The position numbers were made by a program. Below, piece by piece: positions 33,001-39,000 of a stretch of DNA of 64,000 nucleotides. Positions within the stretch are counted from its first letter, which is position 1, and the number at the start of each line of letters is the position of its first letter. This stretch comes from a plasmid. The stretch lies in the NCBI RefSeq assembly GCF_056746865.1, contig NZ_JBWKMP010000002.1. One strand, 5' to 3'.

Positions 33001-36000
33001 GATGGATTACAGATAAACATAAACCCTAATCTGTTGCCATCAATCAAAAAATAGTGAGTCCCTGCTAATTGATCGTAAACAGGGATAAACCCACCTAATT
33101 GATGGCGATTTAAACCGCTATTGTAATTATTGATAGCTTCCATATTTGACCTTACAGTTGTCTAACAATGCCGTTCGAAGAGACAGCTTTAGTTGCTTTT
33201 TGTTGCTGCTGCATATTTTCCCGGGCCGCATCCTGTACTTCTAAAGGAACTATGCGAGCTGGGTTTGAGGTCGAATTCTTGCCAGCAATCCATGTTTGCG
33301 GTTTTACGTTGACATAAACGTAGCCGGGAAGATTAAGCGCATCGTTATCATCGGTATAAGGTGCAAAAGTAATTCTCATTACTTTCCCCTGTTGCAGAAC
33401 AGCAAGTGGTTCAGGAGCCACTACAGCTTGTTTATAACCTTGCGAACGGTATTGCTGGATCTGCCCAGTGTTGAGAGTAGGGTTAACGGGCTGGCCATTG
33501 TAAAGAGAGTACATATCCTTGCCAGGGCTGATATCAGAATTAGGTGCAACGTAGCGTGGTGCATTTCCAGCAGAAACCGGATAGCTTGTTTGTTTAACGA
33601 CTTCCGCAGCCGGATGAACGAAAGGGTTACCAGCTGAAGAGGCAGTGCTATAACTGCTAGTCATCCTTACGTTTGAATTAACCGGTACACCAGAAATAGG
33701 CCGTGGTCCAATGGATGAAGTAGGGGCACCCATTTTTAAAGTTTTATCGTACATGACAGGTAACTGACCAACTGGCTTAATTTCGGTTTTTGAATAAGCC
33801 ACAGGCTGATTTTTAAGGGTTGTAGACTGTGGATATTTGACTTCCCCTGGAGGGCTAATTTCAGTTGGATAACGGCTGTCATTGACAGCCGATTTCTCCT
33901 TTCCCGATTCCGACTCTTCCCCCGCAAGTGCAGACAGATCATCTCGATTATTAGTTAACTCCATAACTTCGCGAGGACCTTTACAGATAACGCCCTTTTC
34001 AATGCCTGGACATTCGGATTCGGAACTCCCGATGGAGCACCCCGTAAGATATGAGGATGTACCTACAACCAGAGCACTGAGTACCAATCTTTTGATGTTC
34101 ATAAACTAGCCTTAATTTGTCTCAAATGGATTTTTTAAGAGAGGTTCAACGCTTTGGTTCAACCAGTAGTCGAAATCTTTTGGAATGCCATTACCAGCCA
34201 AACCATCCTGTCTGACAACTGAAGGTACACCCTGCAATTTATAAATTCCTGCGAGCATCAATGACGCTACCAAAGGTTCCGCCGGACATTCTTCTGCTTC
34301 TTTTTGAGAGAGCAATCTTTTTTCAATGTCGGATTTGCTTCCCATTAGCCAACGAAGAATATCGAGGTTGTTTATTTTTCCTTTTTCTTTACTACACCAG
34401 AGCCTTCTAAGCTCTTCTTTTGGCTCACCGGGTGAGGGAACTAAAACAATATCTATCCGATACTTGTCCCGATCTGCATAAAATTTCTTAACAAGTTCCA
34501 TGCAACCGTCACAATCAAGTGTTAAGAAAATGGCTGCTTGTCTCTTAAGCTTTGAATTTCCCAGATGAATGGACGCTACAGTTTCCAGAGGGAAGGGGGC
34601 CTCATCAAGACTAATAAAATAGGAATTTCTGATTTCTTCTACAGTCAGAACAGGTTTACGTTTAATTACATCAACAAGGCTTCCCCCAGTAAGGGAGTAT
34701 CGGCCATCGGTCGTTACTGCCATTAGCTGCGAACGCTCGTCCTGAAAGAGGTATAGCCCACCAGAAGGAATGTATATGGCATCCTTAGGTTTATATCCTT
34801 TCATTTTTGATAACGCACCCGAGATCTGACTGGGTGAAACGCCGCCTTCCTTTGCCTTTGCCATTAACGCAGCAGCATCACTATTAGTTAGGACCTGCTC
34901 TGAAGCATAAGTGACCGTATTCGCCATAATGGCGAAAGCCGCCATTAAAGGGAAAAGTAACTTTTTCACTATTGGGTGCCCTCTACTTCTTTGCATTATA
35001 AGAACTTGATTGTACCGCTTCAGAGCTATCTTCAAGTTCCATATAAGTGACGATTTCAACACTATCCGGTACAGTAACGGCAAGCGTTGCATCAATAATT
35101 AAATAGCCACGGTCACGGTAGATCTTCATTAATGTTCTGAAATATTCTTCGAATTGAGTTCTATCATTGTCAGCAGTACGGCCTCCGTGATGCTTGAAAA
35201 ATTCCTTACGTAATTCAGGCATGTCAAGCACTGCAATCTTGTACGAAGGCTGTGATTGTTTATTGAAGTAATCGTAAACATTCATAAAGCCTTTATAACC
35301 ATAAATAATGACCAAAACGGCAAAGGCGAAGAAAAATAAATACTTCAATATTTTTTCAATATCAATTTCGAAGGTAATTTTTTTTGTTGTCCTTTCTCGC
35401 ACCATTTTTTTAGTGATTTCAGGTCCAGCTGATTCAGTCGATTCTTTTTTTTCTAAACTATCCATTTAAACCTCAGCGACTGGTCAGATTCGTTGGAATT
35501 GTAGTTCCGGTCTGAACGACAAATGTAATAGCTCGGCCAGGGCTAATTTCTACGATTGGCCACTGTTGTTCTGCAATTGCGGTGTAGTAATCGACGAGTC
35601 GATTAAGGCCACCTTGAGCTGCACCAGCCCCGGCTAATGCCCCAAGTGCACCAAAATTAGGGGACTGATACTGAGCCTGTGAATTAGGGTCGATGTTAAG
35701 TGAAGATACCTTACTGGGGCTTAAGCTACCGGCAAGTGAAGAAAGTCCACCGGCAAATGCAGCTCCTGCAATTGCGTTACCATTTCGGCTGATAAGCGTG
35801 CCTCGGATCCCATTTTTTCCGTCATTTTCACTTACAGCATATGCTTCCAGTTTTACGTCAAAAGCTTTCCCTTTTGAATTAACACAAGAGATAGAAGTGG
35901 CACGTATGTAAGCACGCTGTGACGCCAAATCACCAACAGCTGAACCCAGAAGGTTACAGTCACGCAAATCCATGGTGAAATTATTGGGCATGATGACATC

Positions 36001-39000
36001 TTTTTTAATACGCATTGTTACTGGCATTGGTTCTGATTTGGAAGAAAGGCTTGTAGGCGCTTCAAGCCCGGTAATCAGAACACCAGTGATAATAGATGTT
36101 GCCGGAAGAAACATTTCATCTTTTCGGGCAGCATGCCGCGCTTTGCTATCAACTGGCGCAGTACCATCACCTCGTACAGTCCGAGTAGGCGCTTTATCTC
36201 CTGCAATGACCTCTCTGCCTTCCTTGATTCTGTTTTCAGACACGGGCATAACCTGAATGACACCATCGGTACCATTAGTCTTAATGGAACTTTGTGTGAT
36301 TGTTCTCATCGGGCTATTACGCGTAGGTGTGATAGACGCGTAATTAGGGTTTACGCCATTAATCGGCGCATTAGCATTAAGCTGATAAGGAGCTGCCGGT
36401 GCCTGCTCATTAATCGTTTTACGCGAACTACCAGCATCCAAGTTACGATTGCCGTTTCGATTAGTCTGCATATCATTAATTTGCTGAGACAGTTGCTGAA
36501 GTTGAGAAGTTAAACTTGCAACTTGGGCTTTAGTTTCCTGTTGGGCTTTTTCTGCTTTTTCGCGGTCCTCTTTCGCCGCATTTTGATCAAGTCGGTTTTG
36601 CTTAACCATTTCCTTATATACTTTCTGGCTTTCTTCATTACTCAATTTGTTCATTTGCGAATCATCTAACAACAAATTGGTCTGCATGTCTTTTTTCTGT
36701 GTTTTCTTTTCTTTCTTAACTGGTGTGGAAAAAATAGACTGGCTAATAATATAAACAATCACTACCAGCAGAGCGCCAATAACAGAAAGTCTGACGGTCT
36801 TATTTTCCCAGGCCTTTTTAATGTCCATGATTAGCTCCACTTGTAGGTTTCTGGAATCGTTTAATTTTTAGATTTCGTTCGCTGTCAGACATCTGAGGAA
36901 CGATATAGGGATCACCTGCTCTGGCCCAGTTTTCACGAACAGATGGATGATTCATTTCAGCTTTATCTATCTGGCTCGTTCTAGATATTTCATGTTTGTA
37001 ATTAGGTTCCAAAACGTTACTTTTGTGATAGTCAAAAGCATTCTCCTCATTAATATTGTCCTCTCCTACAAATTTATCAATAAGAGTTGGATCGTTCATT
37101 ATTACTGTCTGAACGGGAAAAGCGTTACTGCCATCTTCGATACTAATGGGTGCGTCCGGAACGATTAATACACTCCTTTTTGGTATATATTCTGACCTGT
37201 AGTAAAAGCTGGTTAAAGCAAATACGACAAAACCAATCACGGTGGCCCCAAGCAGAGCAGGCAAAGTAACTTTTCCCATATTATTTTCTGATTAGACTTG
37301 GTCTGGTTGTAACCCGGGCCTCGCGTTCCTTGAACAATTTATCCCGGACTATGTAAAGCTCTGTTTCTTCTCCCGGTTGCAGGTATGCTTTATCAAATAA
37401 AGCACTTGCAATAACGCCTTCTGCCATACACTGCTGATCAGCAACGATTTGACCGTATGGTTTATCGTTTTTCACAAGAATTACATCAATAAGTTCACGT
37501 GAGCCAACCAGTCTCTGACCGAGCTTTGCATACATATTAAAGTTACATGGGGACTGCTCTGACGCAGGAATACGAGAAAGTCGGTCCTGTTGTAAACTGA
37601 ATCCTGAAGGGACCTCACCAAGAGCCACAGGAGTCAATAAATCAATGATTCTTTGTTTATGATCGTCTTGTTTTGGATCCGATGGAGCCAGTTCTTCTGA
37701 CTGGGAGCGGGCCAACATTTCCTCATAGTTTTGCTTATCCAATGAGGTTTCACGTTTGGCTTGCATAGATGGGCTTAAAGATGTCAGTAACTGAAATCAT
37801 CGCACCGGGAACATCAAGCGGTACCAGGGTCAGGTTATAGGTCGATTCAGGTACCTGATCTTCCGACAACATAATCCCGATTGGTTTATCGGTATTAGTT
37901 GAAATAAAGACATCGCCACCATTAACAAATATGCTTGCCTCTTCAGCAGGGGTAGAAGTGCTGACAGAAGCATTCTTGAAGCTGGTCGATATTCTGTTTT
38001 GAAGTCCTCGTGAAACTGGCAGTACCACATTCCCACCAGGCGGCACATTTACACGCTGAACTTCTTTATATCGGTTACGAGCTTCGACATAAAGTTCATC
38101 GGCTTTTGACGTGGCGGTCGCATTGGTTGCATTCTGCTGGGAAGAGGTACCTGTTGGTCTCCCATAGCTATCAATTGCACCAGAGCGGGTCTGTGCGTCA
38201 AATCCGGGGAGACTAGGATTATTTGATAATGCTCCAGTAATAGCGCTTACCGCAGGCGAAGCATTGCTGGCTGGGGAAAGTTGCACGGTAGGGAGATCAG
38301 TTGTAGGTTTTTGTCCCTGCGCATTACCGGCTTCACTAAGGTTTGTTTGTGCACCTGACTGTTCAGAACCAGCTTGACCCGGAATAATGGCTTTTGCAGC
38401 TCCATTCTGAAATCCGTCAGCACCAACTGGCATTACAACCGGGTTATTAATTGTTGCTGGCAATTGGTATTCTTCAGCGATTACGCAGTTCGAAGTCGTG
38501 AGCATGATCAATGCGGTAATTGCGTTGAACCCTAAGCCCTTTTTTTTAATCATCACTTGTTACCTGTAGACGGTGGCGGATTATCCAGCGTTGCCAGTTG
38601 CTCTTTGCCGTTTATCGTAATTTTTTTAATATTCGGTGTTCCGGAATATTGATTTACATATGCAATTCTTGGGCGACCATTTTTCATCCCGAGAACCCAT
38701 TCATAAGTCCATTTCGATGATTCAGTTTTGTCCGGAACATTTACAAGTCGAGTCGTTTTGGTACCCCAGACATAGACCATGTCATTTTTTGGATCAAAGT
38801 AAATATCATTAGGCTTAAAGGTCTGCTCAACACCACGAGCCTGCATGATATTTATCTGCTCCTGTAAAGACTCACTCGTTTTAGCCTGTAGTTCAGGTGA
38901 AAGGGCATCGAGGACATAGGCCGTCACAAAGGAAATATTAGTTGGATTAATATTCCCTAAAAGGGTACTAAAAAAGAGAGCCCATTGTGTTTTATAAGAT

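What the first reader, a model, noticed from the sequence alone, without database searches (positions are those of the whole stretch)
34983..37766. Extra small membrane ORFs interleaved in the Mpf operon
Three ORFs (37281..37766, 36818..37279, 34983..35465) plus a DsbC-like gene sit between the trhK, trhB and trhV homologs where F has none. Two carry single TM helices. They could be lineage-specific T4SS accessory subunits, or one (37281..37766) a frameshifted part of trhK.
Basis: inference. Interest (0 to 1): 0.3.

Follow-up and report, generated by a model that had tools for sequence, protein, structure and literature searches.

The report
Broken trhK plus known IncHI accessory genes
The "extra" small genes are ordinary, already named parts of the IncHI plasmid mating operon (htdO, htdV, htdT), and the fourth is just the tail of the secretin gene trhK, cut off by one extra base that about 1,400 related plasmid records lack.

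Summary
The window is an IncHI2 (R478-like) plasmid. The region is its Tra2 "AC" operon on the minus strand: trhA-L-E-K-htdO-trhB-htdV-htdT-trhV-trhC.

- **ORF 37281..37766:** not a gene. It is the C-terminal 161 codons (TraK_C domain) of trhK. One extra base at 37785 separates it from the rest. Deleting that base restores the exact 423-aa TraK/TrhK of relatives. None of 1,121 PLSDB records or 275 E. coli records carries the extra base. Three other tested indels in the window (repHI2, htdA, a hypothetical gene) are also private, so sequencing error is the likeliest cause.
- **36818..37279:** htdO (NCBIfam NF041317, 2e-63).
- **34983..35465:** the homologue of R27 R0028/htdV.
- **The DsbC-like gene:** htdT (DsbP, PDB 4ML1, 1e-12).
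- **Conservation:** all three keep the same positions in the four IncHI backbones and one related contig examined.
- **F comparison:** F also has small genes (traP, trbD, trbG) between traB and traV.

One modest new point. HtdV is a single-pass membrane protein whose periplasmic domain looks Skp/OmpH-like. A distant relative sits where F has trbI. HtdV is therefore probably the IncHI counterpart of TrbI. The htdO mechanism remains unknown.

The parts
37281..38553 (-). trhK (TraK-type secretin gene) as a whole, interrupted in this window by a +1 frameshift
   Evidence: Relatives annotate one 1272-nt CDS here (WP_000592090, 423 aa). Deleting window base 37785 restores that exact protein. R27 TrhK (410 aa) is 80% identical and collinear across the site.
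37785..37785 (.). Extra base (C on + strand, G on coding strand: GTT ACT G ACA) that causes the frameshift
   Evidence: It is the only difference from NZ_CP031190 over 33000-40200. A 61-nt allele test found 0 of 1,121 PLSDB records and 0 of 275 E. coli records with the window allele. There is no homopolymer or slippery motif.
37750..38556 (-). N-terminal fragment of trhK (signal peptide plus residues 1-256, then 11 out-of-frame codons and a stop)
   Evidence: The first 256 residues (from the annotated ATG at 38553) are identical to intact TrhK.
37281..37766 (-).
   Evidence: Pfam TraK_C E 8e-6 at residues 37-141. Identical to residues 263-423 of intact TrhK. No Shine-Dalgarno sequence upstream and no signal peptide.
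36818..37279 (-). htdO: 153-aa protein with an N-terminal membrane anchor, a variable linker and a conserved C-terminal motif RAGxPYxVPQMxxxERNLKxKRFxxP
   Evidence: NCBIfam NF041317 HtdO 2e-63, 213 bits against a cutoff of 150. 41% identical to R27 HtdO. Found in 1,402 plasmid records. The motif is shared with positional counterparts in IncHI3/HI5-type plasmids and a Logan contig. Its start lies 1 nt after the trhK stop and its end overlaps the trhB start.
35473..36828 (-). trhB (TraB/VirB10 family), flanking core gene
   Evidence: Pfam TrbI (VirB10-type) 5.8e-23. Annotated trhB in relatives.
34983..35465 (-). htdV homologue (R27 R0028 position): 160-aa bitopic inner-membrane protein with a Skp/OmpH-like, TrbI-like periplasmic domain
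34112..34969 (-). htdT: periplasmic DsbC/DsbP-like disulfide isomerase. The proposed true start is GTG 34969; the start annotated in relatives corresponds to 34864.
   Evidence: PDB DsbP 4ML1 E 1.4e-12 and DsbC 1EEJ 0.18. CDGC motif. GTG 34969 with GAGGG 9 nt upstream gives the signal peptide MKKLLFPLMAAFAIMANTVTYA|SEQ, matching the N-termini of homologues.
33152..34102 (-). trhV (TraV lipoprotein), flanking core gene
   Evidence: Pfam TraV 6.4e-12. Annotated trhV in relatives.

Best explanation
The region is the standard IncHI Tra2 'AC' mating-pair-formation operon of an IncHI2 plasmid. The gene order is trhA, trhL, trhE, trhK, htdO, trhB, htdV, htdT, trhV, trhC.

(1) ORF 37281..37766 is not a gene. 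It is the TraK_C half of the secretin gene trhK, thrown out of frame by one extra base at 37785. No related record has this base. It is most likely an error in the source sequence; less likely it is a real private pseudogenising mutation. Either way the fragment lacks a ribosome-binding site and a signal peptide, so it cannot supply secretin function.

(2) htdO, htdV and htdT are conserved, co-transcribed, tightly packed accessory genes of the IncHI lineage. HtdT is a periplasmic DsbC/DsbP-type disulfide isomerase that proof-reads disulfides in cysteine-containing transfer proteins (shown by homology; the clients are inferred). HtdV is anchored in the inner membrane by one helix and exposes a small Skp/OmpH-like domain in the periplasm. 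I infer that it is the IncHI counterpart of F TrbI, a non-essential modulator of pilus dynamics, possibly acting through the TraH homologue TrhH. HtdO is a membrane-tethered periplasmic protein whose only conserved part is a ~26-residue basic C-terminal peptide. I infer that this peptide docks on the TrhK/TrhB/TrhV core, whose genes flank htdO. That step is untested.
For: - **Identity of the region:** 100% identity to IncHI2 plasmids, 1,107 records covering at least 80%. Annotations in relatives and in R27.
- **Frameshift:** a single-base difference. Removing it gives the exact 423-aa TraK. TraK_C Pfam hit on the fragment and on intact TrhK homologues at the same region. R27 TrhK is collinear at 80% identity. 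0 of 1,121 and 0 of 275 records share the allele.
- **Error-prone record:** three further tested indels are also private. They are repHI2 -2 nt, htdA +1 and a hypothetical gene +1. Indels equal or outnumber substitutions outside the repeat region.
- **htdO:** NF041317 2e-63, 1,402 records, conserved C-terminal motif.
- **htdV:** 54% identical to R27. Named htdV/R0028, and 23-fold higher in the derepressed (htdA-mutant) plasmid drR27 than in wild-type R27 at 25 C. 1,967 records. Synteny across IncHI1/2/3/5-type loci.
- **TrbI link:** the family member P0026 (hhalign 97%, 8e-11) lies directly after traC, where F has trbI. Its best Pfam and NCBIfam hits are TrbI_Ftype, and its hhalign to TrbI gives E 8e-4. 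A published Phyre2 table models F TrbI residues 47-120 on Skp 1U2M (PMC7555446).
- **htdT:** DsbP 1.4e-12. Literature on plasmid DsbC homologues (PMC10838148).
Against: - Whether the extra base is an error or a real mutation cannot be settled from the sequence alone. It is not in a homopolymer.
- The HtdV-TrbI link is weak at the sequence level. Direct BLASTP finds nothing. Family-versus-family hhalign gives E 0.036, prob 1.4%. TrbI_Ftype is far below the Pfam threshold even for P0026.
- HtdV has no cysteine, whereas TrbI homologues are said to share one.
- No experimental phenotype for htdO or htdV could be read. Lawley 2003 is not held.
- The docking role proposed for the HtdO C-terminal motif has no direct support.
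Confidence: 0.85

Rival explanations
1. The frameshift in trhK is a genuine private mutation. This plasmid copy carries a trhK pseudogene and cannot transfer itself.
For: The insertion is not in a homopolymer. 161 of the 1,403 matching PLSDB plasmids are typed non-mobilizable, and many relatives carry IS elements near the operon, so decay of transfer functions does occur in nature.
Against: At least three other private ORF-breaking indels occur in the same 64 kb, including one in the replication initiator gene repHI2. There are almost no private substitutions. That pattern fits sequence error better than evolution.
Confidence: 0.2
2. The split is functional. TrhK is made as two polypeptides, or restored by programmed +1 frameshifting, and 37281..37766 encodes a separate subunit.
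For: The downstream ORF starts with ATG and overlaps the upstream stop by 17 nt. In principle this allows re-initiation.
Against: No relative has this arrangement (0 of about 1,400). There is no Shine-Dalgarno or slippery sequence. The C-fragment has no signal peptide and could not reach the periplasm. Across the IncHI types examined, TraK is a single ORF.
Confidence: 0.02
3. HtdV is unrelated to TrbI and Skp. Its small beta-alpha-alpha-beta-beta domain resembles Skp by chance, and it has a different IncHI-specific role, for example as an assembly factor or regulator. Some records annotate it 'transcriptional regulator'.
For: Family-versus-family hhalign to TrbI is not significant. Pfam and NCBIfam give no hit for HtdV itself. 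Structural scores are modest. Some sources name it 'transcriptional regulator'.
Against: Two independent structure-search methods both rank Skp first. Sequence tests agree in register for both halves. The bridging homologue occupies the trbI slot. F TrbI was independently modelled on Skp. No DNA-binding domain was found, and a transmembrane helix is present.
Confidence: 0.35

Closest known systems
R27 (IncHI1) and R478 (IncHI2) Tra2 AC operon: trhA-L-E-K-htdO-trhB-htdV(R0028)-htdT-trhV-trhC
   Same: Same gene order and same gene families. HtdO is 41% identical, HtdV 54% and TrhK 80% (after repair) to R27. The DNA is essentially identical to about 1,100 IncHI2 plasmids, including R478, NC_005211.
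   Different: Only this window has trhK split by an extra base.
F plasmid TrbI (TrbI_Ftype, PF09677 / TIGR02744)
   Same: Both are bitopic inner-membrane proteins with an N-terminal anchor and an ~85-100-residue periplasmic domain. Both map to the Skp fold. A member of the HtdV family (P0026) occupies the post-traC trbI position.
   Different: No significant direct sequence match. HtdV has a ~35-residue cytoplasmic N-tail and no cysteine. It lies between trhB and htdT rather than after trhC.
Skp / OmpH periplasmic chaperone (PDB 1SG2, 1U2M)
   Different: HtdV is membrane-anchored rather than soluble. Its helical 'tentacles' are about 35 residues in total rather than about 90. Trimer formation and chaperone activity are untested.
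DsbP / DsbC plasmid-encoded disulfide isomerases (PDB 4ML1; SXT s054, Rts1 Orf212)
   Same: HtdT aligns with DsbP over 200 residues at E 1.4e-12. It has the CXXC motif and a Sec signal peptide. Its position next to traV/traC is as in other MOBH/MPF_F elements.
   Different: About 285 aa with a longer N-terminal region. No Pfam or NCBIfam model in the local libraries hits it.
F traP / trbD / trbG (small genes between traB and traV)
   Same: Small, partly membrane-located accessory genes in the same inter-core-gene slot.
   Different: No homology to htdV or htdT was seen in the family searches run, though no direct comparison was made. TraP has two TM segments.

Membership tests
TraK/TrhK F-type secretin (for ORF 37281..37766 plus 37750..38556) | C-terminal TraK_C domain (PF23536) | tested here: met
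   E 8.2e-6, 26.4 bits on the fragment. This is just under the 28.5 cutoff, as for intact R27 and IncHI2 TrhK. F TraK scores 2e-23 as a positive control.
TraK/TrhK F-type secretin (for ORF 37281..37766 plus 37750..38556) | Single ORF with an N-terminal signal peptide, located between traE and traB | tested here: not met
   The ORF is split by a +1 frameshift in this window only. After removing base 37785 it is identical to WP_000592090. It therefore belongs to the family as a disrupted or mis-sequenced copy.
HtdO (NCBIfam NF041317; Pfam PF28168 in precomputed annotations) | Full-length match above the curated cutoff | tested here: met
   213 bits against a cutoff of 150, residues 1-153 of 153. 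PF28168 is listed for cluster representatives.
HtdO (NCBIfam NF041317; Pfam PF28168 in precomputed annotations) | Position between trhK and trhB in an IncHI Tra2 operon | tested here: met
HtdV (R27 R0028) | Orthology and position between trhB and htdT | tested here: met
   54% identity, E 5e-56 to the R27 ORF. R0028 is named htdV. Synteny.
TrbI_Ftype (PF09677 / TIGR02744), considered for HtdV | Sequence match to the family model above threshold | tested here: not met
   HtdV itself has no hit. The distant member P0026 scores only 15.7 bits against a 27.4 cutoff. hhalign A3 against A4 gives E 0.036.
TrbI_Ftype (PF09677 / TIGR02744), considered for HtdV | Bitopic topology: N-terminal TM anchor plus a small periplasmic domain | tested here: met
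   Hydropathy and the positive-inside distribution read from the sequence. AF2 helix 36-71 followed by a folded domain at 76-139. TrbI topology as described in PMC7555446.
TrbI_Ftype (PF09677 / TIGR02744), considered for HtdV | Interaction with TraH; effect on pilus retraction and phage sensitivity | not testable with these tools
   This needs two-hybrid or pulldown with TrhH, plus pilus-length and Hgal phage assays.
Skp/OmpH fold, considered for HtdV | Structural similarity of the body domain | tested here: inconclusive
Skp/OmpH fold, considered for HtdV | Homotrimer with a client-binding cavity | not testable with these tools
   Only single-chain prediction was available.
DsbC/DsbP thiol-disulfide isomerase, for HtdT | Thioredoxin-fold domain with a CXXC active site | tested here: met
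   CDGC at residues 118-121 of the 250-aa form. Aligned with the DsbP CAVC site, E 1.4e-12.
DsbC/DsbP thiol-disulfide isomerase, for HtdT | Export to the periplasm (signal peptide) | tested here: met
   Met only with the upstream start GTG 34969 (or ATG 34996). The start annotated in relatives (34864) lacks a signal peptide.

The most novel reading that the evidence does not exclude
HtdV (34983..35465) and F TrbI belong to one ancient family of inner-membrane-tethered 'mini-Skp' proteins in F-type T4SSs. The family has moved within the operon, from after traC to between traB and the dsbC-like gene. It would act as a membrane-anchored holdase or scaffold for periplasmic or outer-membrane T4SS parts such as TraH/TrhH. 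That would give TrbI-type pilus-retraction factors a structural mechanism and extend them to the IncHI plasmids that spread mcr-1 and other resistance genes.
Probability: 0.45. Interest if true: 0.4.

Novelty: already known. Interest (0 to 1): 0.15.

Why it matters
Mostly housekeeping. The result stops a sequencing-type frameshift in trhK from being read as a new T4SS subunit. It also shows that the window's source record has several similar defects (repHI2, htdA), so other "odd ORFs" in this window should be distrusted. The remaining genes are known IncHI accessory genes. The one useful lead is the Skp/TrbI-like assignment for HtdV, which gives a testable hypothesis for a gene conserved in about 2,000 clinically important IncHI plasmids but still annotated 'hypothetical' or, wrongly, 'transcriptional regulator'.

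Tried and rejected
- **Programmed frameshift or a two-subunit TrhK:** rejected. There is no slippery site, Shine-Dalgarno sequence or signal peptide, and no relative shares the allele.
- **Direct BLASTP of HtdV against F TrbI:** no alignment.
- **Family-versus-family hhalign, HtdV against TrbI:** E 0.036, prob 1.4%, not significant.
- **Pfam and NCBIfam scans of HtdV and HtdO family members at E up to 10:** only noise for HtdV. HtdO is found only by NF041317.
- **HMM profiles of HtdV and TrbI against PDB sequences:** nothing meaningful.
- **hhalign of Skp against TrbI_F:** nothing.
- **Foldseek against afdb50:** the library was unavailable, so TrbI AlphaFold models could not be compared directly.
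- **HtdO profile search:** found only small IncHI-type proteins and no fusions to TraB or TraK that might hint at a partner.
- **'Transcriptional regulator' label on HtdV in some records:** rejected. The protein has a TM helix and no DNA-binding domain.
- **Primary papers:** Lawley 2003 (PMC145343), Sherburne 2000 (PMC105367) and Elton 2005 (PMC1316991) are not held. The mutant phenotypes of htdO, htdV and htdT could not be verified. From memory, unverified, the Lawley 2003 abstract lists 11 essential Tra2 Mpf genes and none of the htd genes is among them.
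Full report
**What the region is.** The window matches IncHI2 (R478-type) plasmids at about 100% identity. 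For window 33000-40200, 1,403 PLSDB records match, and 1,107 of them cover at least 80% of the query. All genes of interest lie on the minus strand, in this order:

| Gene | Window coordinates |
|---|---|
| trhA | 39721-40101 |
| trhL | 39353-39703 |
| trhE | 38553-39341 |
| trhK | 37281-38553 |
| htdO | 36818-37279 |
| trhB | 35473-36828 |
| 160-aa ORF (htdV homologue) | 34983-35465 |
| htdT | 34112-~34969 |
| trhV | 33152-34102 |
| trhC | 30471-33143 |

These assignments rest. R27 (IncHI1) has the same order. There this stretch is the thermoregulated "AC" operon of Tra2, and R0031, R0030, R0029, R0028 and R0027 are trhK, htdO, trhB, htdV and htdT.

**The first "extra ORF" is the tail of trhK.**
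- *One CDS in relatives.* Close relatives annotate a single 1,272-nt CDS (423 aa, "type-F conjugative transfer system secretin TraK") spanning both 37750..38556 and 37281..37766.
- *A single-base difference.* Over 33000-40200 the window differs from NZ_CP031190 by exactly one base, an extra C at 37785. On the coding strand this reads GTT ACT G ACA.
- *Removing it repairs the gene.* Deleting that base gives a protein identical to WP_000592090. The window's N-fragment equals residues 1-256 followed by 11 out-of-frame codons.
- *The fragment is the TraK_C domain.* It carries the Pfam TraK_C domain at E 8e-6, the same sub-threshold score that intact R27 and IncHI2 TrhK obtain.
- *Other IncHI types have one ORF.* R27 TrhK is a single 410-aa protein, 80% identical and collinear across the site. 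IncHI3- and IncHI5-type plasmids and a related metagenomic contig also have one traK of 385-389 aa.
- *The allele is private.* A 61-nt allele test found the window's version in none of 1,121 PLSDB records and none of 275 E. coli records. All of them carry the 60-nt version.
- *The fragment cannot function alone.* It has no Shine-Dalgarno sequence and no signal peptide, and the site has no slippery motif. A functional split protein or programmed frameshifting is therefore very unlikely.

**Error or real mutation?**
- *More indels in the window.* Comparison with NZ_CP031190 shows several further 1-2-nt indels elsewhere in the window.
- *Three more were tested, and all are private:*
  - A -2 nt deletion at 55795 splits the replication initiator gene repHI2. 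0 of 1,125 records share it.
  - A +1 insertion at 19114 splits the transfer repressor gene htdA. 0 of 1,126 records share it.
  - A +1 insertion at 23115 splits a 278-aa hypothetical gene. 0 of 1,123 records share it.
- *Few substitutions.* Outside the repeat region, substitutions are no more numerous than indels.
- *Judgement.* Four of four tested ORF-breaking indels are private. I judge the trhK frameshift to be most probably a sequence error in the source record (about 0.75) and otherwise a real private pseudogene (about 0.2). Only read-level data can decide.

**htdO (36818..37279).**
- *Family.* It matches the curated NCBIfam equivalog NF041317 "plasmid transfer protein HtdO" end to end, at 2e-63 and 213 bits against a cutoff of 150. 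It is 41% identical to R27 HtdO. tblastn finds it in 1,402 plasmid records.
- *Architecture.* It has one N-terminal hydrophobic anchor, a poorly conserved middle and a conserved C-terminal motif, RAGxPYxVPQMxxxERNLKxKRFxxP.
- *Conservation of the motif.* That motif is the only part shared with the positional counterparts in IncHI3/HI5-type plasmids and in a Logan contig.
- *Breadth.* A profile search found only small IncHI-type proteins and no fusions.
- *Gene packing.* htdO starts 1 nt after the trhK stop and overlaps the trhB start, which suggests translational coupling.
- *Expression.* In R27 it is induced 4-fold at 25 C together with trhK and trhB.
- *Function.* I infer, without a test, a membrane-tethered peptide that docks on the TrhK/TrhB/TrhV core.

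**The 160-aa ORF (34983..35465) is the htdV homologue.**
- *Orthology.* It is 54% identical to the R27 ORF between trhB and htdT, which is R0028 = htdV. In R27 the htdV signal is 23-fold higher in the derepressed htdA-mutant plasmid.
- *Distribution.* Relatives occur in 1,967 plasmid records, including about 30%-identical proteins in Klebsiella IncHI3/HI5-type plasmids. They always lie between traB and the disulfide isomerase gene.
- *A narrow family.* An exhaustive profile search of 1.84 billion representatives found only 21 clusters.
- *Topology.* The protein has a basic N-tail, one TM helix and a C-terminal domain of about 90 residues. The charge distribution read from the sequence favours N-in/C-out.
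- *Model.* An AF2 model built from a 16-sequence alignment has mean pLDDT 68, and 75-87 in the domain. It shows helix 36-71, then beta 76-80, alpha 82-93, alpha 98-118, beta 121-125 and beta 137-139.
- *Sequence support.* hhalign of E. coli Skp against the family gives E 2e-4 on KIAIVNMGSLF ~ KIAVLDMxxL (the Skp sequence was verified). hmmsearch gives Skp a single-test E of 2.6e-4. Pfam OmpH is a weak hit (E 0.058) on the C-terminal half of the distant member P0026.

**The link from HtdV to F TrbI.**
- *P0026 belongs to the HtdV family.* hhalign gives prob 97%, E 8e-11, against an alignment that excludes it.
- *P0026 sits in the trbI slot.* It is encoded in a metagenomic F-type locus, two genes (one 82-aa ORF) after traC. 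F has trbI directly after traC.
- *Its best family hits are TrbI_Ftype, far below threshold.* Pfam gives E 0.02 and TIGR02744 gives E 0.005. hhalign to an F TrbI alignment gives E 8e-4, prob 25%.
- *F TrbI has the same architecture.* A published review describes F TrbI as a 128-aa bitopic inner-membrane protein with an 88-residue periplasmic domain. It interacts with TraH and affects pilus retraction. The review's Phyre2 table models residues 47-120 on PDB 1U2M, which is Skp (PMC7555446).
- *The direct tests fail.* BLASTP finds no alignment, and family-versus-family hhalign gives E 0.036, prob 1.4%.
- *Conclusion.* I therefore do not file HtdV as a TrbI_Ftype member. I propose, at about 0.45-0.55, that it works like TrbI and shares the Skp-like fold.

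**htdT.**
- *Family.* The DsbC-like gene matches the plasmid disulfide isomerase DsbP (PDB 4ML1) at 1.4e-12 over about 200 residues, and E. coli DsbC weakly. It carries a CDGC active site.
- *Literature.* Plasmid DsbC homologues contribute to conjugation in F, R27, SXT and Rts1 (PMC10838148).
- *Start codon.* The start annotated in relatives (window 34864) removes the signal peptide. GTG 34969 is preceded by GAGGG 9 nt upstream. It gives MKKLLFPLMAAFAIMANTVTYA|SEQ, which matches the N-termini of the IncHI3/HI5 homologues and the TTG-initiated R27 form.

**Comparison with F.** F has nothing between traK and traB. It has traP, trbD and trbG between traB and traV, and it encodes TrbB (thioredoxin fold) and TrbI elsewhere. 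"Where F has none" is therefore only partly right.

**Verdict.** One of the three "extra ORFs" is an artefact of a private frameshift in trhK, probably a sequence error. The other two, and the DsbC-like gene, are the known IncHI genes htdO, htdV and htdT. They are conserved across the IncHI types examined and co-regulated with the Mpf genes. Novelty is low. The only new lead is the Skp/TrbI-like assignment of HtdV.

Noticed in passing
window 55294-56377 (indel at 55795): repHI2, the IncHI2 replication initiator gene, is split into two frames because the window lacks 2 nt (AA) relative to relatives. None of 1,125 PLSDB records shares the window allele.
   Followed up: yes
window ~18753-19203 (indel at 19114): htdA, the transfer repressor gene, is split by an extra A. 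None of 1,126 PLSDB records shares the allele. If real, the plasmid would be derepressed for transfer; more likely this is another sequence error.
   Followed up: yes
window 22602-23436 (indel at 23115): A 278-aa conserved hypothetical gene is split by an extra G. None of 1,123 records shares the allele.
   Followed up: yes
window 49299 and 49482; 30636-30641 and 31125; 24215, 24646, 25020: Further small indels relative to NZ_CP031190. A compensating -1/+1 pair 183 nt apart garbles about 60 codons of a DUF4942 gene. In-frame 3-nt and 6-nt deletions in trhC give 890 aa instead of 893. Single-base indels lie near or in a 129-aa hypothetical gene and parB. It was not tested which record carries the odd allele.
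   Followed up: partly
window 34864-34996: The htdT start annotated in RefSeq relatives (equivalent to 34864, MAKAKEGG...) leaves the periplasmic disulfide isomerase without a signal peptide. GTG 34969, with a GAGGG Shine-Dalgarno sequence, gives a canonical signal peptide conserved in homologues.
   Followed up: yes
window 26800-29200: The large non-coding stretch between parA and trhC contains diverged direct repeats, with self-matches of 80-90% identity over 0.3-1.3 kb. It accounts for most differences from relatives. It is presumably the IncHI repeat or partition-site region; it was not analysed.
   Followed up: no
L012 21696-22567 (NZ_CP031190) vs window 2524-3393: At window 3086 it is the relative NZ_CP031190 that appears frameshifted: its annotation has two short hypothetical ORFs. 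So not every indel between the two records is the window's fault.
   Followed up: partly
window 34983-35465: Some GenBank and NCBI records label the HtdV homologue 'transcriptional regulator'. The protein has a TM helix and no detectable DNA-binding domain, so the label looks wrong.
   Followed up: partly
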